Shown here piece by piece: positions 1 to 52,911 of a DNA stretch of 64,000 bases (its first letter is position 1; every line of letters starts with the position of its first letter). Origin of the DNA: Nitrosopumilaceae archaeon (lineage in GTDB: Archaea > Thermoproteota > Nitrososphaeria > Nitrososphaerales > Nitrosopumilaceae); the NCBI GenBank assembly GCA_024644385.1, contig JAHELB010000003.1, positions 4,223-68,222 on the forward strand. Reading direction: 5' to 3'. A model generated the notes under the pieces. The model was not told the DNA's origin and made no database searches. It was given only the letters and a program-made list of their open reading frames with translations. The position numbers were made by a program, and so were the translations under genes.

Positions 1-414
1 TCTGTTGCAATACTTATTCTTCCTGTAGCCCAATCATCTCCAATTTTATACATTACCGGCTTGAGTATCTTATCAAAAAAGTCTGTAATATTAAAAATGC
101 AAATGTAATCCTCATAAATCTTAATGGAACCTTGAATATTTCCTTCGGTTAATTTTTTAAATAACTGTTGTTTGGAATTTTTTGACGCTTCTTCTCTTTT
201 TTTAATATCTTTTGGATTGTATTTTGCTAATCCAGATAATATTTTTGGATCGTTTCTATAGTCTGGTGGTAGGTCATCTTTTACAACCTCTGAGGATTTG
301 CCAAGGTATTTTACAATCTCTTGCTTGGATGTATTTTTTTTAGAGTCCCAGACACTTTTAACTAAATAGAGGTATTGATCTGACTTTACTTTTTTTGCTC
401 GAAGATACACCATA
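1..414 (-). CDS. Cobalamin (B12)-binding-domain protein, N-terminal part only (C-terminus lies off the window)
   Basis: Open frame on the minus strand from ATG (cat at 412-414) to the window edge; it is absent from the ORF track. The translation MVYLRAKKVKSDQYLYLVKS...ILKPVMYKIGDDWATGRISIATE matches the helical B12-binding_2 cap motif (IGxxWxxGxISxAxEH). Confidence 0.55.
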
Positions 415-514
415 ATTTCTCACATAAAAGAAGATATTTAACTAATGCCAACTTAAATTTATAGTGGTAAATTGTTTTAAATTGAAAATAATTTGTTCCT
501 AATTTTTCCTTATA

Positions 515-551
515 TTAGCACTAGAAATATTAATTAACACTAGTTTAAATA
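515..551 (+). promoter_or_regulatory. Tandem direct repeat (TTAGCACTA / TTAACACTA) abutting a TATA-like TTTAAATA box; a near-identical element lies at 2928-2963
   Basis: ttagcactagaaatattaattaacactagtttaaata. It sits between the divergent start at 414 (minus) and the plus-strand genes beginning at 573-653. Confidence 0.45.
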
Positions 552-652
552 ATTTAGTCCCATGTACTAGTCATGGAATACATTAATTCCCAAAAAATAC
601 CAAAATCAATGGTTTGGAGAGCAAATTTCCATCAATTAGGGGGACTATATTT

Positions 653-850
653 ATGGATAAGATGATTTTATCAGTAGGTGCAGTTCTCATCGCACTTGGG
701 ATAGGCTTTTTGGTAGTGGCCTCAATGGATTACACATTGAGCGGTGCATATACTACAGGGGGATATCTTTGGTTGGTCGTCGGTGCAATAACTGCTGGAA
801 TAGGAATCAAGGTTAATCGTTCAAGTAAAGAACTTGATGCAATGAGATAG
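653..850 (+). CDS. Small membrane protein (2 predicted TM helices)
   Basis: ORF track gives 614..850. I prefer the ATG at 653 (MDKMILSVGAVLIALGIGFLVV...). The protein is hydrophobic and the gene sits 4 nt upstream of the next gene. Confidence 0.5.
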   Translation: MDKMILSVGAVLIALGIGFLVVASMDYTLSGAYTTGGYLWLVVGAITAGIGIKVNRSSKELDAMR

Positions 851-854
851 AAAA

Positions 855-2234
855 ATGACCTACTTGCAAACTGAGAAATCTCAACTCAAACTTTCACCCT
901 ATTCAATTTTGGTTACTGGTGCTACGGGATTTATTGGATCGAGATTAATTTCCTCTCTTTGCGAGAAAGGATACAAGGTCACTGCAATGAGTAGAAAGAA
1001 AATAAAAGATTCAGAGAATGTGAGGTATGTGCAAGCTGATGTTTTTGATGTAGATCAATTGGAAAAAGCAATGAGAGGAATTGAAATTGCTTATTATTTG
1101 CTACACTCGATGGAAGGAAGTAAAAAAGAATGGAGGGAATTTTCTTCCCGTGAACGGACTCAAGCTCAAAACTTTTTAGAGGCTGCTACTAAGGCAGGTG
1201 TTAAAAGAATTATTTACCTAGGGGGCTTGGTTAACGACAGCCTCGAATTATCCCCTCATATGAAAAGCAGGAAAGAGGTTGGACAAATCCTAGCTTCTGG
1301 AAAAATTCCGGTAACAGAATTGCGTGCATCTATTATCATTGGTGCAGAAGGAGGTTCCTATGCTATGCTTCGATATTTAGTTGAGAGATTGAGAATAATG
1401 GTTTGTCCCTCTTGGGTAAAATCCTTGGCGCAACCAATCGCTGTGGATAATGTGTGTGATTATCTGATGGGTTGCTTAGAAAAACCAGAGACCACTGGAA
1501 AAATTTTTGAAATCGGAGGTCCTGAAAAGATGACGTATGAGGAATTAATGAGGCTATATTCAGCTTATTTAAACAAAAATTTGTTTGTCATACAAATCCC
1601 ATTTTTAACTACTAGACTGTCTTCCTATTGGGTTGATTTGATTACGCCCGTAAAAGCTTCTCTAGCACGCCCTTTGATTGATAGTTTGGTCCATGATACG
1701 ATTGTTACTGATGATTCGTTATCAAAAATTATTCCATTACATCTAAAATCAGTAAGAGAGTCTATTGATATTGCCACAAAAGAAATGAAACAAAATCCTC
1801 CCAAAGGCGAACTAAAAGAGGAACGAACAGGATTTAAGATTAACCAAAAACTAATTCAAACAAGTCTAATTGCACTTGCAATAATTGGTTCTACATACTA
1901 TTGGCTAGATGACCGACCAGAAGTTTGGCAACCTCTGTGGTTAATTGGTTCATTTATTTGGTATAGTGCAATTGTTGCAGCAATTATTTTTATAAATAAC
2001 AAAACACGTCTAGGATATCTAATTGCTGGTGTACTTTCATGGTTTACATTGGCTTTTTTGTTATTTGATAATTTTTACATAATTTTTGAGACTTCATTTT
2101 TAGCCACCCAACCAAATGAATTAATGACTATTAGAAACTTTGTTGGCATATTTGTTGCGGTATTAGCGGTCTTTGCATCTCACAATTTATTTCATAAAGT
2201 AATTGATTATCAATACAGAGGAAAGCCCATCTAA
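855..2234 (+). CDS. NAD(P)-binding SDR/NmrA-like oxidoreductase with a C-terminal multi-TM extension
   Basis: Rossmann motif VTGATGFIGSRL near the N-terminus. The last ~130 aa are hydrophobic helices. Confidence 0.75.
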   Translation: MTYLQTEKSQLKLSPYSILVTGATGFIGSRLISSLCEKGYKVTAMSRKKIKDSENVRYVQADVFDVDQLEKAMRGIEIAYYLLHSMEGSKKEWREFSSRERTQAQNFLEAATKAGVKRIIYLGGLVNDSLELSPHMKSRKEVGQILASGKIPVTELRASIIIGAEGGSYAMLRYLVERLRIMVCPSWVKSLAQPIAVDNVCDYLMGCLEKPETTGKIFEIGGPEKMTYEELMRLYSAYLNKNLFVIQIPFLTTRLSSYWVDLITPVKASLARPLIDSLVHDTIVTDDSLSKIIPLHLKSVRESIDIATKEMKQNPPKGELKEERTGFKINQKLIQTSLIALAIIGSTYYWLDDRPEVWQPLWLIGSFIWYSAIVAAIIFINNKTRLGYLIAGVLSWFTLAFLLFDNFYIIFETSFLATQPNELMTIRNFVGIFVAVLAVFASHNLFHKVIDYQYRGKPI

Positions 2235-2301
2235 TACTTTTTGAGAATATCCAAAAAAATTTCGTATTTGAGTTTTAATATTGGGTTGCTCAAATACTTG
2301 T

Positions 2302-2841
2302 TTATTGTTTGTTATTTTCTAAAATTAGAAAAAATTCTGGTGGTATATTTGAATAGAGTAAAAAATATGTTTGAGAAGCTAGATATGTATTATTAAATCT
2401 GAAAATAATTGGATGTATTTCTGAGAGGATTTCTCCTAAGGTAATCTTTTCATCTTTATATGTTTCCAAAAGATGAAGGAATTTTCTTTGTTCCTGTAAG
2501 CTGAAATTTTTGGAAAAATAACCAAAAATATGAAGAATGACGTTGGAGTGTTTTTTTATGGTCGGCGGATTTTCTAGAGCCTTTTCTAAATGATATTCAT
2601 AATATTCTAAAATTTCTAAAAAGGGTATCTTTTTGTATTTTGCTACAATATTTCCTAATTTCTTAAGTTCTTCTTGATCATGGGACATTAGCATATACTT
2701 ATTCATCGCCTGAAAATTAACCAGGTTTTTGATCTTTTTAGTCAGTTTTACATCATTGAATCTCTCCAGGACAAATTCTTTAACATCTGACTCAGAAATT
2801 TGAGTGTTTTTTATGCCTAGATTTTCAACTTTTTCACTCAT
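2302..2841 (-). CDS. DUF1722 (YbgA-like) protein
   Basis: NKYMLMSHDQEELKKLGNIV, HSNVILHIFGYFSKNFSLQEQRKF and QTYF follow the YbgA/DUF1722 consensus. Confidence 0.7.
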   Translation of the reverse strand: MSEKVENLGIKNTQISESDVKEFVLERFNDVKLTKKIKNLVNFQAMNKYMLMSHDQEELKKLGNIVAKYKKIPFLEILEYYEYHLEKALENPPTIKKHSNVILHIFGYFSKNFSLQEQRKFLHLLETYKDEKITLGEILSEIHPIIFRFNNTYLASQTYFLLYSNIPPEFFLILENNKQ

Positions 2842-2927
2842 TTAGAAAATCCAATTTGATTACATAAAAAGTCAAATAGAAAAAATTGGGATTACCACTA
2901 GAGTTTTTTGAAAGGGAATTAAAAAAT

Positions 2928-2963
2928 TTAGCACTAGATAATATTTTAGCACTATCTTAAATA
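2928..2963 (+). promoter_or_regulatory. Second copy of the tandem TTAGCACTA direct repeat plus a TATA-like box, ~22 nt upstream of the ATG at 2986
   Basis: ttagcactagataatattttagcactatcttaaata. It has the same architecture and spacing (18-19 nt) as 515-551. Confidence 0.45.
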
Positions 2964-2985: not shown

Positions 2986-3891
2986 ATGAAAATAACAATC
3001 ACGACTATAGCAGTAATTTTGATAGTTGGTTCAATCACTTCATTTGCAAGCGCACAGGAAGTTCCCGCTTGGGTAAAAAACAATGCAGGATGGTGGGCTG
3101 AAGGAACAATTTCAGAATCAGATTTTGTACAAGGAATTCAATTCTTAATCAAGGAGGGAATTATTGTAGTACCACCAACAGCAGTATCTTCTGATAAATC
3201 TCAAGGAGTACCTGAATGGGTCAAAAATAATGCAGGATGGTGGGCTGAAGGAACAATAACTGATGCTGATTTTATTAATGGGATTCAGCATCTTATTAAA
3301 ACAGGAGTAATTTCTGTTTCTTCATCTGAAAAACCAGAAATGGAACAGCCAAAGTCAGTTTCTGAGGATTCAAAATTGACATCCTTAGAAAAAGAACTTG
3401 AAGCATGTTCTGAAATTACAAAAGCCTATCCAAGATTAAATTGTGAAAAAGCTGTAAAGCATGAAATTGAAGCGTACAAGATAATGAAAAGTGGCCAAGC
3501 TTTTCAAGTGGGACCATTAACATATTATTGGACTGGTCTTGGGACTGAAGGAAATTCATTTGAAATTACTTCAAGTGGACAAGCAATTCTATCTGTTAGG
3601 CTTTTAGCTGTACATAACGGTGGCTCTGATAATATCGCAATGATGTGCACTGGGCCTGCAATATGCAACTATGATGTATGGAATGGAGACAAAGCTTTCA
3701 AATATGCAGGAATGGATTTTACCAATGGACAAATTATTGTCAAACCTGGAACTTCAGCAATATTCAACATGTTGTTTGGTCCAAACATTGGTTACGGTGG
3801 GACAACATTTGAGTACGATGCATCAAAGGAGTATTACTTTAGAATCTCCGAGCCATATGGAAGTGCATCTATTCCCTTGAACATTCCATAG
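2986..3891 (+). CDS. Secreted protein with two N-terminal VPxWVKNNAGWWAEGTI...GIQxLIKxGII modules
   Basis: Signal peptide MKITITTIAVILIVGSITSFASA, followed by a duplicated 35-aa module and a C-terminal domain of unknown function. Confidence 0.7.
   Translation: MKITITTIAVILIVGSITSFASAQEVPAWVKNNAGWWAEGTISESDFVQGIQFLIKEGIIVVPPTAVSSDKSQGVPEWVKNNAGWWAEGTITDADFINGIQHLIKTGVISVSSSEKPEMEQPKSVSEDSKLTSLEKELEACSEITKAYPRLNCEKAVKHEIEAYKIMKSGQAFQVGPLTYYWTGLGTEGNSFEITSSGQAILSVRLLAVHNGGSDNIAMMCTGPAICNYDVWNGDKAFKYAGMDFTNGQIIVKPGTSAIFNMLFGPNIGYGGTTFEYDASKEYYFRISEPYGSASIPLNIP
3061..3312 (+). repeat. Intragenic duplication (3061-3165 and 3208-3312) encoding the WWAEG module
   Basis: The two 105-nt segments are highly similar at both DNA and protein level. 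Confidence 0.8.
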
Positions 3892-4123: not shown

Positions 4124-4846
4124 ATGAATATCTTACATGTTGATGATTCTCCCGAAATATGTGAACTGTATTCAGATATGTTTTCAGCAGATAATCACAC
4201 CGTTAGAAGCATTACGGATGGAAAGGAAGGGTTAGAATTAGTAATTCAAAATAATTTTGATTTAATTCTTCTTGATTTGTGTATGCCTAAATTTAGTGGA
4301 TTTGATTTTCTTCGTGAATTAAAAACTCGAAAACCCTCAGAGTTGAAAAAAGTGGTAGTAGTAAGCGTACTTGACTTTAATGAATCTCAAACCCAAGAAT
4401 TGTTAAATTTTGGAATCCACTCAGTTGAGGAAAAACCTTCAAGCATAAAAAAACTTGAGATTATTCAAAAAAATATGACACTCAATTCCAAGAAAGTACT
4501 TTTGATTGATGACAATATAGAAATCACTGGTCTTCTTTCAAAATTTCTTAAAGCCAAAGGGTATGACAATGAAATTACAAATAATCCTCTGGATGGACTA
4601 GAAAAAATTAAAAATAAAATGTACGATTATGTTTTTCTAGATATCCACATGCCTGAATTAAGCGGATTTGATATTATTCAAAATTTAGAATCTGAAAATA
4701 TTCTCAAAGATCAAAAAATAATAATATTTTCTGCCCATGATTTTAAGGCAGGGGAGATTACAGAATTATTAAAAAAAGAAGGCATAGAAGGGTATCTGAA
4801 AAAACCTATTCAACTTAATGCTCTTCTCGCAACTATAACAAAGTAA
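4124..4846 (+). CDS. Response regulator made of two tandem receiver (REC) domains, with no output domain
   Basis: REC1 shows LHVDDSPE...DLILLDLCMPKFSG. REC2 shows LLIDDNIE...DYVFLDIHMPELSG...GYLKKP. Acidic pocket, phospho-Asp and Lys are present in both. Confidence 0.85.
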   Translation: MNILHVDDSPEICELYSDMFSADNHTVRSITDGKEGLELVIQNNFDLILLDLCMPKFSGFDFLRELKTRKPSELKKVVVVSVLDFNESQTQELLNFGIHSVEEKPSSIKKLEIIQKNMTLNSKKVLLIDDNIEITGLLSKFLKAKGYDNEITNNPLDGLEKIKNKMYDYVFLDIHMPELSGFDIIQNLESENILKDQKIIIFSAHDFKAGEITELLKKEGIEGYLKKPIQLNALLATITK

Positions 4847-5089: not shown

Positions 5090-6013
5090 TCAAATTTCCA
5101 ACCTTAATGTCTGCTCTTCCTTTAATCCCTTGTATCGATTTCTTATTGTAACCTCCGTGACACCTGCAGCCTCGGCAAGATCTCGTTGAGTAATAGGAAA
5201 TCCTTTTTGAATGCAGGCCATGTATAATGCTGTTGCCGCAAGCCCCATTGGAGCCTTTCCTGCAGATTCTCTACTTGCTTGTGTATCTTCAAGTATTTTA
5301 GTCGCATAACGTTTTATTTTTTCGGGTATCTCAAGTTTGCTTGAAATTCTTGCAATACATTGAATTGAATCTACAACGGGCATCTTTAGTTCCAATTCAC
5401 GATACAATAGTCTGTAAGATCTTGCAATATCCTTTCGCTTTACATTTGCAGAAACGGCAACATCATTTAGTGTTCTGGGAGTTTCTGTATCTCTGCAAGC
5501 CGCATAAAGCGAGGCTGCAATCATTGCAGAAATGGATCTGCCGCGAATTAATTTTTTCTCCAAAGCCTTTCTGTAAATATAGGCAGCCTTCTCAAGAACA
5601 CTCGAAGAAATTGTTAGTTTGTCTTTTAATGTTCCCAACTCACCAAGTGCCTGTCTAAGATTCCTGTCTGCTGATTGAGCTTGACTTCTACTATCCCAAG
5701 TTCTTAGTCTCTCAATAGTAGTTTTCATCGATGAAGAAAGAGGTTTTCCCGTTGAATCCCTGTTGGCCGGTCCAATTATTGTGTATAATCCCTTGTCGTG
5801 TCTTGTAAGAGATGTTGGTGTTCCAGTTCTTGCAGGGTCTGGACCGCCATCCTTCTGAAAAGATCTCCATTCTGGACCTGCTTCTTGTGATTTTTCAGAG
5901 ACTACATTACCACATTTGGAACAAAATCGCTCTCCTGTATCTCCATCGGTTAGCATTGAATGTTTTCCACAACGTGAACATTTTGATTCACTCTGGAAAT
6001 TATCTATAACCAT
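5090..6013 (-). CDS. tfb: Transcription initiation factor IIB (TFB)
   Basis: N-terminal zinc ribbon CSRCG...CSKCG, then two cyclin-fold repeats typical of TFB. Confidence 0.95.
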   Translation of the reverse strand: MVIDNFQSESKCSRCGKHSMLTDGDTGERFCSKCGNVVSEKSQEAGPEWRSFQKDGGPDPARTGTPTSLTRHDKGLYTIIGPANRDSTGKPLSSSMKTTIERLRTWDSRSQAQSADRNLRQALGELGTLKDKLTISSSVLEKAAYIYRKALEKKLIRGRSISAMIAASLYAACRDTETPRTLNDVAVSANVKRKDIARSYRLLYRELELKMPVVDSIQCIARISSKLEIPEKIKRYATKILEDTQASRESAGKAPMGLAATALYMACIQKGFPITQRDLAEAAGVTEVTIRNRYKGLKEEQTLRLEI

Positions 6014-52272: not shown

Positions 52273-52911
52273 ATGACAAAAATAGGCCATTGGAAGGGAG
52301 CTGACGCAGTAGAAAACTTGTTAGATTGGTGCGAGCAGCTTGACATCAAAATTATTACTCTATATGCTCTCTCAGTGGAGAATCTAAACCGGAACGACAA
52401 AGAATTACAATATCTTTTTGAATTAATTCGTTTAAGGCTAGAAAAATTGTACAAAGATCCTCGAATCCACAAAAATAAGATGAGAATAAAAGGAATAGGG
52501 AGAATTGAACTTTTACCAGAACCGATCAAAGAAATCCTGCATAAATTGGAGCAGTCCACAAAAGGATATGATAGTCATTTTCTTAATATAGCATTAGCTT
52601 ATGGTGGACAACTTGAATTGGTTGATGCGGTAAAAAAAATTGGAGAAAAAATTAAGGAAGGATCTCTCAAAATTAATGACATTGATAAGAAAGAAATTGA
52701 ATCGAATTTGTATACATCACATTTACCACAATCATCTCCTGACATGATTTTAAGAACTTCGGGAGAAAAAAGGTTGAGTGGGTTTCTAATGTGGCAAAGT
52801 GTTTATAGTGAATTAGTTTTTATGGATATTTTTTGGCCAGAGTTTAGAAAAATAGATTTAATGAGAGCCATTAGGACTTATCAAGAACGAAAAAGGAGAA
52901 TTGGAAAATGA
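52273..52911 (+). CDS. uppS: Undecaprenyl (cis-prenyl) diphosphate synthase. Conserved coding sequence continues upstream to ~52129 without a canonical start codon.
   Basis: In-frame upstream sequence encodes LYKIYSKKLENEIKNGDIPNHVALILDGNRRWAK, the catalytic N-terminus. Downstream motifs are ALSVENLNR and RTSGEKRLSGF. See the corresponding finding. Confidence 0.85.
   Translation: MTKIGHWKGADAVENLLDWCEQLDIKIITLYALSVENLNRNDKELQYLFELIRLRLEKLYKDPRIHKNKMRIKGIGRIELLPEPIKEILHKLEQSTKGYDSHFLNIALAYGGQLELVDAVKKIGEKIKEGSLKINDIDKKEIESNLYTSHLPQSSPDMILRTSGEKRLSGFLMWQSVYSELVFMDIFWPEFRKIDLMRAIRTYQERKRRIGK

What the first reader, a model, noticed from the sequence alone, without database searches (positions are those of the whole stretch)
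515..2963. Two promoters share a tandem TTAGCACTA direct-repeat operator fused to the TATA box, next to a B12-binding-domain gene and a DUF1722 gene
**Seen in sequence.** The elements at 515-551 (ttagcactagaaatattaattaacactagtttaaata) and 2928-2963 (ttagcactagataatattttagcactatcttaaata) are near-identical. Each has two 9-bp direct repeats 18-19 nt apart, and the second repeat abuts a T/CTTAAATA box. Each lies in a divergent intergenic region:
- the B12-binding-domain gene (start 414, minus) versus the small-membrane/SDR operon
- DUF1722 (start 2841, minus) versus the secreted WWAEG protein, whose ATG is ~22 nt after the box, suggesting a leaderless mRNA

**Established knowledge.** Operators overlapping BRE/TATA are the classic mode of archaeal repression. 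B12-dependent CarH/LitR photoregulators bind tandem direct repeats. YbgA/DUF1722 is typically linked to photolyase and light regulons in bacteria.

**Inference.** This looks like a small regulon, possibly B12- or light-responsive, controlled by the truncated upstream gene. That gene has a non-MerR N-terminus (MVYLRAKKVKSDQYLYLVKS...).
Basis: partly seen in the sequence, partly recalled or inferred. Interest (0 to 1): 0.65.

Follow-up and report, generated by a model that had tools for sequence, protein, structure and literature searches.

The report
Archaeal B12 light-switch repressor and operator
Ammonia-oxidizing archaea appear to carry a vitamin-B12-based light sensor joined to a previously undescribed DNA-binding domain, and its TTAGCACTAG repeat boxes sit on the TATA/BRE of its own gene and of a small, conserved, probably light-induced gene set that includes photolyase in related genomes.

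Summary
In this Nitrosopumilaceae window, all six TTAVCACTA matches (1.4 expected) and all seven strong 10-bp boxes lie in two intergenic regions.

They form three tandem-box promoters, not two. The DUF1722 promoter has one inverted box.

The layout is box–N8-9–box–TATA–21-23 nt–start codon. It recurs at hundreds of sites in ammonia-oxidizing archaea. Boxes are conserved, spacers are not, and each target class keeps its own variant.

Full-length orthologues of the truncated gene are about 280 aa:
- an N-terminal three-stranded β-sheet domain with no Pfam or PDB match;
- a cobalamin module closest to CarH/LitR, with Wx9EH and the His177 equivalent aligned.

Recurrent targets are the regulator, the secreted protein, SDR, a CrtI-like FAD oxidoreductase, DUF1722 and small proteins. 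In ten relatives DUF1722 forms an operon with CPD photolyase at this same locus.

Best reading: an AdoCbl-dependent dark repressor that blocks BRE/TATA and is released by light. DNA binding, cofactor and light response are inferred, not shown. I found no published description.

The parts
1..413 (-). 5' part (137 codons) of the regulator gene. It covers the N-terminal beta-sheet domain, a linker and the start of the B12-binding_2 helix bundle. The window end cuts off the rest of the gene.
   Evidence: Translation is and the PF02607 hit (E 5e-5). The 91%-identical full-length orthologue L001 is 280 aa and carries PF02607 + PF02310. The structure model shows strands 2-9, 12-23 and 28-39, then helices.
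435..470 (-). Promoter and operator of the regulator gene itself. Distal box TTACCACTAT is at 470-461, proximal box TTGGCATTAG at 451-442 and TATA TTAAATA at 441-435. The ATG at 413 lies 21 nt after the TATA.
   Evidence: Sequence is and PWM scores 11.6 and 16.4. The same architecture sits at the same offset in nearly all of the 78 orthologous loci. Box spacing is 19 in 75 of 76.
515..551 (+). Promoter and operator of the small-membrane-protein/SDR operon. Distal box TTAGCACTAG is at 515-524, proximal box TTAACACTAG at 534-543 and TATA TTTAAATA at 544-551.
   Evidence: PWM 18.0 and 12.9. Orthologous divergent promoters are listed.
573..652 (+). Probable 5' leader of the operon. It contains an ATG at 573 (22 nt after the TATA) that opens a 30-codon ORF, 573-665, which resembles only the one in the closest relative.
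   Evidence: the ORF clusters only with L001. In L055 and L168 the small membrane protein itself starts about 21 nt after the TATA.
653..850 (+). Small membrane protein (65 aa, MDKMILS...). It is the first gene of the regulated operon.
   Evidence: ORF; no Pfam match. Homologues lie behind the operator in L021, L055, L139 and L168.
855..2234 (+). NAD(P)-binding SDR/NmrA-like oxidoreductase with a hydrophobic C-terminal region (459 aa).
   Evidence: Pfam PF13460, PF05368 and PF01370. It is a direct operator target in 14 + 5 loci.
2302..2841 (-). Stand-alone DUF1722 (YbgA-like) gene. In relatives it is the first gene of a DUF1722-photolyase pair. The photolyase is absent here: only 67 nt separate the DUF1722 stop from the SDR stop.
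   Evidence: PF08349 at E 4e-33. The DUF1722-photolyase arrangement is seen in L027, 32, 40, 41, 43, 45, 47, 49, 52 and 61. The photolyase is TIGR03556 at E 6e-104. A motif scan found no photolyase in the window.
2864..2871 (-). TATA box of the DUF1722 promoter (minus strand TTTTTATG). The start codon at 2841 lies 22 nt downstream.
   Evidence: Sequence. Orthologues align on CTTTATATGCAAA-N~20-GTG.
2892..2901 (+). Single box TTACCACTAG. It is inverted relative to DUF1722 and lies about 20 nt upstream of the DUF1722 TATA.
   Evidence: PWM 15.1. An inverted box lies at about -61 to -50 from the start codon in most of the 64 DUF1722 loci. This includes loci without a neighbouring tandem operator, such as L002, L014, L049, L067 and L069.
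2928..2963 (+). Promoter and operator of the secreted-protein gene. Distal box TTAGCACTAG is at 2928-2937, proximal box TTAGCACTAT at 2946-2955 and TATA CTTAAATA at 2956-2963.
   Evidence: PWM 17.4 and 12.3. This target class keeps 18-nt spacing in 43 of 54 orthologues.
2986..3891 (+). Secreted or membrane-anchored protein (301 aa). It has two VPxWVKNNAGWWAEG repeats and a conserved C-terminal domain. Apart from the regulator, it is the most frequent target of the operator. The mRNA is probably leaderless.
   Evidence: ORF; no Pfam or NCBIfam match. It is a target in 58 of the regulator-linked loci and 35 of the pattern-derived loci.

Best explanation
The TTAGCACTAG boxes are the operator of a transcription factor specific to ammonia-oxidizing archaea. 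Its gene is the truncated minus-strand ORF at 1-413.

The protein (about 280 aa in orthologues) has two parts:
- A small basic N-terminal three-stranded beta-sheet domain. DNA binding by this domain is inferred.
- A CarH/LitR-type adenosylcobalamin light-sensing module made of a four-helix bundle and a Rossmann domain.

Proposed mechanism, by analogy with CarH (inferred):
- In the dark the AdoCbl-loaded protein oligomerises.
- It then occupies two direct 10-bp boxes whose starts are 18-19 bp apart.
- The promoter-proximal box lies where the BRE would be and abuts the TATA box, so TFB/TBP cannot assemble and the (mostly leaderless) transcript is not made.
- Light breaks the Co-C bond, the oligomer falls apart or leaves the DNA, and the genes are derepressed.

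The regulon comprises:
- the regulator itself (autoregulation);
- a secreted WWAEG-repeat protein;
- a small-membrane-protein/SDR operon;
- a CrtI-like FAD oxidoreductase;
- several small proteins;
- DUF1722, through a different single-box arrangement. In many relatives DUF1722 forms an operon with CPD photolyase.

Shown here: the motif's specificity, its conservation, its position relative to TATA and start codon, the target families, the sensor-module homology and its signature residues.

Inferred: which protein binds the boxes, the cofactor, the response to light, and the direction of regulation.
For: **Specificity.**
- All strong boxes in 64 kb lie in the two intergenic regions.
- A strict pattern scan of 185,579 species' genomes returned mostly ammonia oxidizers: 71 of the 80 rows shown. 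The few bacterial hits lack the TTRS prefix and a downstream ORF.

**Conservation.**
- 78 orthologous regulator promoters keep TTAGCACTAK-N9-TTAGCAYTAG-TTAWATA-N20-23-ATG, while spacers vary.
- 229 operators were found in 884 kb of regulator-linked loci, and 141 more elsewhere.
- In the pattern-derived set, the start codon lies 21-23 nt after the TATA in 103 of 122 sites with an ORF.
- Information content is 1-2.6 bits per box position against 0-0.3 in the spacer.
- Each target class keeps its own box variant and spacing.

**Link between regulator and operator.**
- The regulator's own promoter carries the operator in nearly every one of the 78 Nitrosopumilaceae loci with the gene.
- Regulator homologues and the same box co-occur in Nitrososphaeraceae.

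**Sensor module.**
- PF02607 + PF02310.
- The best NCBIfam match is the CarH repressor, E 8e-17.
- phmmer against all PDB sequences finds only TtCarH/LitR at the top, E 8e-11.
- In that alignment W128-x9-E138-H139 falls on CarH W131/E141/H142, and GEEH173 falls on GERH177.
- A profile search gives CarH/LitR at 5e-21.
- The top 50 Foldseek hits for the window fragment are all CarH/LitR helix bundles.

**N-terminal domain.**
- The model is confident, with three long beta strands.
- A profile finds 529 clusters. 38 of 39 proteins of about 280-316 aa carry the B12 domains. Other hosts include HNH nucleases and a DDE transposase, which fits nucleic-acid binding.

**Light-related content.**
- A DUF1722-photolyase pair lies at this locus in 10 relatives.
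- A TudS-DUF1722 fusion plus photolyase is flanked by boxes in L109.
- In bacteria, DUF1722/RudS and photolyase belong to LitR-controlled light operons (PMC11417400).
- No cobalamin-biosynthesis or B12-enzyme genes appear among the targets.
Against: - No experiment of any kind supports binding, cofactor or light response.
- The window's own gene is cut after residue 137. Its Rossmann domain and His ligand are seen only in orthologues.
- The N-terminal domain has no Pfam match and no significant PDB fold match (best E = 1). DNA binding rests on context alone.
- The DUF1722 promoter has one inverted box that does not overlap BRE/TATA. Simple occlusion does not explain its control.
- The Nitrososphaeraceae regulator genes examined (L186, L120) show no obvious operator upstream of the start codon I assigned.
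- Photolyase is absent from this window.
- The information-content figures are partly circular, because the sites were selected with a PWM. The fixed-offset conservation of the distal box is the independent part.
- B12-binding domains with the same signatures can also act as antirepressors or cofactor sensors.
Confidence: 0.7

Rival explanations
1. The boxes are a real operator, but the signal is cobalamin status (availability or form of B12) or redox state rather than light. The protein would then act as a cofactor-sensing repressor.
For: The sensor is a B12-binding module. Related modules also occur in non-photoreceptor corrinoid proteins and in MetH, which rank next in the searches. The most frequent targets (secreted protein, small proteins) have no known link to light.
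Against: - No cobalamin biosynthesis, transport or B12-dependent enzyme gene is among more than 350 operator-linked genes.
- The Wx9EH cap and the His177 equivalent, which mark AdoCbl photoreceptors, align exactly.
- Photolyase and DUF1722 are linked to the system.
- The closest structures and sequences are CarH/LitR, ahead of MetH and corrinoid proteins.
Confidence: 0.12
2. The boxes are bound by a different, unidentified transcription factor. The B12-domain protein would be just another regulon member, or an antirepressor like AerR, and its N-terminal beta domain would not bind DNA.
For: The N-terminal domain has no recognised DNA-binding fold. B12-domain antirepressors without a DNA-binding domain exist: AerR is among the PDB hits at 5e-15.
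Against: - The gene's own promoter carries the operator in nearly all of the 78 loci examined.
- The gene is the hub of the cluster of regulated genes.
- The N-terminal domain is invariant at R5, K7, Y14, Y16, V18, W22, Q31, Y36 and G38 across families in which the box is also unchanged.
- The same domain heads HNH nucleases and a DDE transposase.
- No other conserved regulator gene is linked to the cluster.
Confidence: 0.1
3. The protein binds the boxes but acts as a light- or dark-dependent activator, or as a dual regulator, rather than a dark repressor.
For: At the DUF1722 promoter the single box lies about 20 nt upstream of the TATA. This position is typical of archaeal activators rather than repressors.
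Against: At every tandem operator the proximal box occupies the BRE position and abuts the TATA. From established knowledge of archaeal regulators such as MDR1, LrpA, Phr and TrmB, this is the classic repressor geometry. CarH/LitR relatives are dark repressors (PMC11417400).
Confidence: 0.06
4. The repeats are a generic promoter or BRE variant, or a dispersed repeat with no dedicated regulator.
For: They are AT-rich and fused to the TATA box. Single 1-mismatch matches to the 9-mer are no commoner than chance in the window (15 against 12.4 expected).
Against: Only 7 strong boxes occur in 64 kb, all at four promoters. The same handful of gene families carries them across two archaeal families. 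Class-specific variants are conserved.
Confidence: 0.02

Closest known systems
CarH / LitR: bacterial MerR-family, adenosylcobalamin-dependent photoreceptor repressors (Thermus thermophilus, Myxococcus xanthus, Bacillus megaterium; PDB 5c8d, 5c8e, 3whp)
   Same: - The sensor module is a four-helix bundle plus a Rossmann domain.
- The Wx9EH cap and the lower-ligand His align residue for residue, and these are the top sequence and fold matches.
- The operator is made of direct repeats overlapping the core promoter.
- The regulator sits beside its targets and appears to autoregulate.
- The regulon has light-protection content: photolyase, DUF1722, SDR and a CrtI-like oxidoreductase.
   Different: - The DNA-binding domain is not a MerR winged helix. 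It is a ~40-residue three-stranded beta sheet with no Pfam or PDB relative.
- The host is archaeal, so what is occluded is BRE/TATA rather than -35/-10.
- The boxes are 10-mers with starts 18-19 bp apart. From my own knowledge, the CarH operator has contiguous 11-bp repeats.
- The NCBIfam CarH equivalog cut-off is not reached (61.5 against 400 bits).
Class II LitR light regulons of Pseudomonas (phrB-litR-rudS operons), as summarised in PMC11417400 and PMC9758184
   Same: The gene content overlaps: photolyase and a DUF1722-containing gene under a B12-domain regulator encoded next to them. In L109 the DUF1722 is even fused to a TudS-like domain, as in RudS.
   Different: The regulator's DNA-binding domain, the operator sequence and the promoter type all differ. 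Most archaeal DUF1722 copies are stand-alone. The archaeal regulon adds lineage-specific secreted and small proteins.
AerR / PpaA: B12-binding antirepressors of purple bacteria (PDB 7te2)
   Same: A cobalamin-binding module is used for light and redox control of transcription. AerR is a PDB sequence hit at 5e-15.
   Different: AerR has no DNA-binding domain and works through CrtJ. The archaeal protein has an extra conserved N-terminal domain and its own operator-bearing promoter. CarH/LitR score better than AerR.
Archaeal repressors that bind over BRE/TATA (for example MDR1, LrpA, Phr, TrmB; from established knowledge)
   Same: The operator geometry matches: the site overlaps or abuts BRE/TATA about 25-45 nt upstream of the start, which predicts a block to TBP/TFB recruitment.
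   Different: Those are HTH/wHTH proteins that sense metals, amino acids, heat or sugars. None is known to use a cobalamin sensor or a beta-sheet DNA-binding domain.
Stand-alone or otherwise fused cobalamin-binding proteins with solved structures (PDB 8j2x, 8j2w, 8jbs, 8j2y with GGDEF)
   Same: These are the best profile hits (1e-25 to 1e-22). The Wx9EH and His motifs are conserved in the printed alignment.
   Different: Their partner domains differ, and none has the archaeal N-terminal domain. I did not look up what is known about their function.

Membership tests
CarH/LitR family of AdoCbl photoreceptor repressors | C-terminal cobalamin-binding module: a four-helix bundle (PF02607) followed by a Rossmann-type B12-binding domain (PF02310) | tested here: met
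   The window fragment hits PF02607. The full-length 91%-identical orthologue hits PF02607 at 82-152 and PF02310 at 165-261. 38 of 39 family members carry both domains.
CarH/LitR family of AdoCbl photoreceptor repressors | Wx9EH motif capping the 5'-deoxyadenosyl group, and the His that becomes the lower axial ligand (TtCarH W131, E141, H142, H177) | tested here: met
   The phmmer alignment to 5c8a/5c8d puts DHWATGKISIATEH on EAWHRGEIGVAEEH and PLGEEHHLG on PPGERHEIG. E137, H138, G171, E172 and H174 of the alignment are at least 90% conserved. Within the window itself only W128 is visible, because the gene is cut at residue 137.
CarH/LitR family of AdoCbl photoreceptor repressors | N-terminal MerR-type winged-helix DNA-binding domain | tested here: not met
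   Residues 1-80 have no Pfam match. AlphaFold models give three beta strands and no helix in residues 1-40. The NCBIfam CarH match covers only model positions 83-264 and scores 61.5 bits against a cut-off of 400.
CarH/LitR family of AdoCbl photoreceptor repressors | AdoCbl-dependent oligomerisation and operator binding in the dark, both lost on illumination | not testable with these tools
   This needs purified protein, UV-vis spectroscopy, SEC and EMSA in dark and light.
CarH/LitR family of AdoCbl photoreceptor repressors | Operator of tandem direct repeats overlapping the core promoter of light-induced genes, including the regulator's own operon | tested here: met
   Tandem direct boxes abut the TATA at the regulator's promoter and at target promoters. 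The repeat length and spacing differ from CarH's.
Archaeal BRE/TATA-occluding repressor (functional class) | Binding site overlapping BRE/TATA at a fixed distance from the transcription start | tested here: inconclusive
   The position relative to the TATA and to the start codon is fixed: 21-23 nt in 103 of 122 pattern-derived sites with an ORF. Transcription starts and actual binding are not known.
Bacterial-type light regulon (photolyase / DUF1722-RudS / SDR / FAD oxidoreductase) | Co-regulated or clustered photolyase and DUF1722 genes next to a B12-domain regulator | tested here: met
   In 10 related loci a DUF1722-photolyase pair lies between the operator-bearing intergenic regions and the regulator gene. 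The photolyase is TIGR03556 at E 6e-104. In the window itself the photolyase is missing.

The most novel reading that the evidence does not exclude
Ammonia-oxidizing archaea (both Nitrosopumilaceae and Nitrososphaeraceae) sense light with a B12-based photoreceptor transcription factor. Its DNA-binding domain is a previously unrecognised small beta-sheet fold.

If so, this would be:
- the first cobalamin photoreceptor regulator described in Archaea;
- the first defined light regulon of this globally important group;
- a pointer to unknown photoprotection functions in the secreted WWAEG protein, the 61-aa and 184-aa proteins, and the SDR/FAD-oxidoreductase pair.

The same beta domain, reused by transposases and HNH nucleases, would be a new sequence-specific DNA-binding module.
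Probability: 0.6. Interest if true: 0.85.

Novelty: new variant of a known kind. Interest (0 to 1): 0.78.

Why it matters
Ammonia-oxidizing archaea drive nitrification in the oceans and in soils, and they are known to be inhibited by light. No light sensor or light-responsive regulator has been defined for them.

This finding gives a concrete, testable system:
- a named protein family;
- its 10-bp box and operator grammar;
- a short list of target genes conserved across two archaeal families.

Consequences if confirmed:
- CarH-type B12 photoreception would extend from Bacteria into Archaea.
- The sensor module would be shown to have been recombined with an unrelated DNA-binding domain and adapted to TBP/TFB promoters.
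- A small light-switchable repressor/operator pair would become available for archaeal and other TBP-dependent expression systems.
- Current database names for the protein (methionine synthase, MtbC1 corrinoid protein, hypothetical) would need correcting.

Tried and rejected
- **Plain 9-mer with one mismatch.** It is not enriched overall (15 against 12.4 expected). Only the exact or degenerate core and the clustering of sites are informative.
- **First crude pair scan.** It produced false pairs in coding regions and was replaced by a PWM.
- **The search for homologous proteins with the 137-aa fragment.** It returned mostly truncated or frameshifted metagenomic fragments. Full-length proteins were taken from genome loci instead.
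- **First genome-wide pattern.** About half the returned rows were chance matches in AT-rich bacteria, with no TTRS prefix and no ORF. A stricter pattern was used.
- **Foldseek of the N-terminal domain alone.** It gave nothing meaningful. I had recalled a resemblance to the beta-sheet DNA-binding domains of integrase arm-binding and AP2 type, but this could not be supported.
- **Second box 18-19 nt from the DUF1722 box.** None was found.
- **The match at 52787-52810.** It lacks the TTRS prefixes, scores below the PWM threshold, and is taken as chance.
- **Auto-operators at Nitrososphaeraceae regulator genes.** None was obvious in L186 or L120.
- **Literature searches.** I combined CarH/LitR/B12 photoreceptor terms with Thaumarchaeota, Nitrosopumilus and ammonia-oxidizing archaea. 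No paper on such a regulator turned up.
- **The 30-codon ORF at 573.** I considered it as a leaderless small gene and rejected it, because it is conserved only in the closest relative.


Full report
**Context.** The window is AT-rich (about 33% G+C). It comes from a member of the Nitrosopumilaceae, the ammonia-oxidizing archaea (AOA). The best relatives of its first gene are Nitrosopumilaceae MAGs and isolates.

Genes in the region of the finding:
- 1-413 (-): the 5' part of a gene whose product hits the B12-binding_2 helix bundle (PF02607).
- 653-850 (+): a small membrane protein.
- 855-2234 (+): an NAD-binding SDR/NmrA-like protein.
- 2302-2841 (-): DUF1722.
- 2986-3891 (+): a secreted protein without a family match.

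**The observation.**

Two small corrections apply. The minus-strand gene starts at 413, and the repeat unit is a 10-mer, TTAGCACTAG.

The pattern is far from chance:
- TTAVCACTA occurs six times in 64 kb against 1.4 expected. None of 100 shuffles reached six, and all six matches lie in the two intergenic regions.
- A half-site weight matrix built from related promoters scores seven sites above 11 bits. These are + 515, 534, 2892, 2928 and 2946, and - 470 and 451. The rest of the window peaks at 10.5 bits.
- The paired pattern CACTA-N13-14-CAYTA occurs four times against 0.25 expected.

- The regulator gene's own promoter, read on the minus strand, has the same architecture. It runs TTACCACTAT (470-461), nine nt, TTGGCATTAG (451-442), TTAAATA (441-435), then 21 nt to the ATG at 413.
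- The box at 2892-2901 belongs to the DUF1722 promoter, not to the tandem operator of the secreted-protein gene.

**Conservation.**

A search of one genome per species found 80 loci encoding relatives of the 137-aa fragment (54-91% identity). In 78 of them the start of the gene is present.

The regulator's promoter aligns at a fixed offset as TTAGCACTAK-N9-TTAGCAYTAG-TTAWATA, followed by 20-23 nt and the start codon. The nine-nt spacer and the stretch after the TATA vary freely. I anchored this alignment on the proximal box only, so the conservation of the distal box is independent evidence.

Scanning the 884 kb of these loci with the matrix gave 229 tandem operators:
- Box starts are 19 nt apart in 172 and 18 nt apart in 54.
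- Almost all are followed by a TATA box and a start codon at a constant distance.

Information content is 1-2.6 bits per position in the boxes and 0-0.3 in the spacer. This figure is partly circular, because the sites were selected with the matrix.

Each target class keeps its own variant across genomes:

| Target class | Spacing | Box variant |
|---|---|---|
| Regulator | 19 nt in 75 of 76 | proximal TTAGCATTAG |
| Secreted protein | 18 nt in 43 of 54 | standard boxes |
| FAD oxidoreductase | 19 nt | distal ...CTAT, proximal TTAGCACTTG, TATA TATAAATA |

- With the looser pattern, hits from ammonia oxidizers carried the unspecified TTRS prefixes and an ORF 21-22 nt after the TATA. Hits in AT-rich bacteria carried neither.
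- With the stricter pattern, 71 of the 80 rows shown were ammonia oxidizers. These included Nitrososphaeraceae, Nitrosocosmicus and Nitrososphaera.
- Among 141 distinct operators in these pattern-derived loci, the start codon lies 21-23 nt after the TATA in 103 of the 122 with an ORF.

This fits leaderless transcripts. It places the proximal box where the BRE should be.

**Targets.**

Operator-linked genes fall into a few families:

| Target | Regulator-linked loci | Pattern-derived loci |
|---|---|---|
| Regulator itself | 76 | 29 |
| Secreted WWAEG-repeat protein | 58 | 35 |
| CrtI/amine-oxidase-like FAD oxidoreductase (PF01593) | 22 | none clustered with the reference |
| SDR, direct or behind the small membrane protein | 14 | 5 (+3 small membrane protein) |
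| 61-aa protein MAEEQEWANLL... | 2 | 9 |
| ~184-aa protein | 1 | 7 |
| Zn-ribbon proteins, 59 aa and 67-69 aa | 4 and 5 | 4 and 4 |
| Two membrane proteins in Nitrososphaeraceae | not sampled | 8 each |

No cobalamin-biosynthesis gene or B12-dependent enzyme appears among the targets.

DUF1722 is controlled differently. Its promoter (CTTTATATGCAAA, then about 20 nt to a GTG or ATG) has a single box in inverted orientation about 20 nt upstream of the TATA. The box sits at about -61 to -50 in most of 64 loci. This includes loci with no tandem operator nearby.

**Photolyase link.**

In ten Nitrosarchaeum-type loci the gene order matches the window, with one addition. The order is secreted protein, operator region, DUF1722, then SDR (convergent), operator region, regulator. 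The addition is a 450-aa gene that follows DUF1722 on the same strand after 8-94 nt. It is a CPD photolyase (TIGR03556, E 6e-104).

In the window only 67 nt separate the DUF1722 stop from the SDR stop. A motif scan finds no photolyase anywhere in the 64 kb.

Other arrangements:
- In L109 a TudS-like/DUF1722 fusion precedes a photolyase, with boxes around it.
- In L173 and L181 a photolyase is followed directly by the operator of the 61-aa gene.

In bacteria, DUF1722 (as RudS) and photolyase are members of LitR-controlled light operons (PMC11417400).

**The regulator.**

Full-length orthologues are about 280 aa.

The C-terminal module:
- Residues 82-261 are PF02607 + PF02310.
- The best NCBIfam match is the CarH repressor, E 8e-17. 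It is far below the equivalog cut-off and covers only the sensor part.
- A single-sequence search of all PDB sequences finds TtCarH/LitR first, E 8e-11 to 9e-10.
- In that alignment DHWATGKISIATEH falls on CarH's W131...E141-H142, and GEEH on GERH177.
- A family profile gives cobalamin-binding proteins 8j2x/8jbs at 1e-25, LitR/CarH at 5e-21, MetH at 8e-20 and AerR at 5e-15.
- The AlphaFold model of the window's 137 residues has pLDDT 85. Its top 50 PDB fold matches are all CarH/LitR helix bundles. The E-values are weak (0.035) because only about 58 residues of the bundle are present.

The N-terminal domain:
- The first ~40 residues form three long antiparallel beta strands rich in Lys and Arg.
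- They have no Pfam match and no significant PDB fold match.
- A profile of this domain finds 529 clusters among 1.84 billion representatives.
- 38 of 39 hits of about 280-316 aa carry the B12 domains.
- Among other hits are two HNH nucleases, a DDE transposase and an AbiEii protein. This suggests a portable nucleic-acid-binding module.

Homologues in Nitrososphaeraceae (L186, L120; 38-40% identity) keep the Wx9EH and GExH motifs.

Public databases call the protein 'B12 binding domain protein', 'cobalamin-dependent protein', 'MtbC1', 'methionine synthase' or 'hypothetical'.

**Interpretation.**

The best-supported model is a CarH-like, AdoCbl-dependent dark repressor with a new DNA-binding domain. 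Bound to the two boxes, it would cover the BRE and abut the TATA, blocking TFB/TBP. Light would release it.

Steps that are shown:
- operator specificity, conservation and geometry;
- the target families;
- the sensor homology and signature residues;
- the link to photolyase and DUF1722.

Steps that are inferred:
- that this protein binds the boxes;
- that the cofactor is AdoCbl;
- that light is the signal;
- that binding represses.

Open points:
- The single inverted box at the DUF1722 promoter does not overlap BRE/TATA.
- The reason for class-specific 18 versus 19 nt spacing is unknown.
- Each box contains an imperfect palindrome (TAG-CA-CTA), so it may bind one domain or two.
- The two Nitrososphaeraceae regulator genes examined lack an obvious auto-operator.

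**Rivals.** The alternatives, in order of weight, are a cobalamin-status or redox sensor (0.12), a different DNA-binding factor with this protein acting as an antirepressor (0.10), an activator or dual regulator (0.06), and a generic promoter element (0.02).

**Novelty.** Five searches of the paper library combined CarH, LitR or B12-photoreceptor terms with Thaumarchaeota, Nitrosopumilus or ammonia-oxidizing archaea. None found a description of such a regulator. The sensor module is of a known kind. The DNA-binding domain, the archaeal promoter context, the operator and the regulon appear to be new. I therefore rate it a new variant of a known kind, of high interest for nitrifier biology and for photoreceptor evolution.

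Noticed in passing
window 2235-2301, compared with L027:2954-4330 and nine other loci: Related genomes carry a CPD photolyase gene directly downstream of DUF1722. This window has only a 67-nt gap there and no photolyase anywhere in its 64 kb. The organism has either lost the gene or never acquired it at this locus, yet it keeps the regulator and the rest of the cluster.
   Followed up: partly
window 4124-4846 (+): The protein consists of two tandem response-regulator receiver domains (PF00072, two stretches) with no output domain. It lies just downstream of the regulated cluster. No box lies upstream of it.
   Followed up: no
window 5090-6013 (-): A transcription factor B (TFB) gene with a TFIIB zinc ribbon and cyclin repeats lies about 2 kb from the cluster. 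Ammonia oxidizers have several TFB paralogues. I did not examine whether this one relates to the regulated promoters.
   Followed up: partly
window 573-665 (+): An ATG lies exactly 22 nt after the TATA of the SDR-operon promoter and opens a 30-codon ORF that overlaps the start of the small membrane protein gene. It is conserved only in the closest relative (L001). In other genomes the small membrane protein or the SDR itself starts at that position. This genome therefore seems to have gained an ~80-nt leader.
   Followed up: partly
L109:1716-2690 (+), Nitrosopumilus sp. b1: A 324-aa TudS-like/DUF1722 fusion (RudS-like architecture) sits directly upstream of a photolyase gene in an archaeon, with operator boxes nearby. 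Most archaeal copies seen here are stand-alone DUF1722.
   Followed up: partly
proteins P0184, P0189, P0210 and others: The ~40-residue N-terminal beta-sheet domain of the regulator also heads proteins with HNH nuclease, DDE transposase and AbiEii domains. It has no Pfam model. It may be an unrecognised DNA-binding module shared with mobile elements.
   Followed up: partly
L186, L120, L110, L190, L094, L127 (Nitrososphaeraceae): In soil ammonia oxidizers the same tandem boxes precede two membrane-protein families (about 66 aa and about 196 aa) that are not seen as targets in the Nitrosopumilaceae sampled. The regulon content is therefore partly lineage-specific.
   Followed up: partly
window 52787-52810 (-): This is a fourth match to the loose paired pattern CACTA-N14-CAYTA. 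It lacks the TTRS prefixes and scores below the box threshold, so I take it as a chance match.
   Followed up: yes
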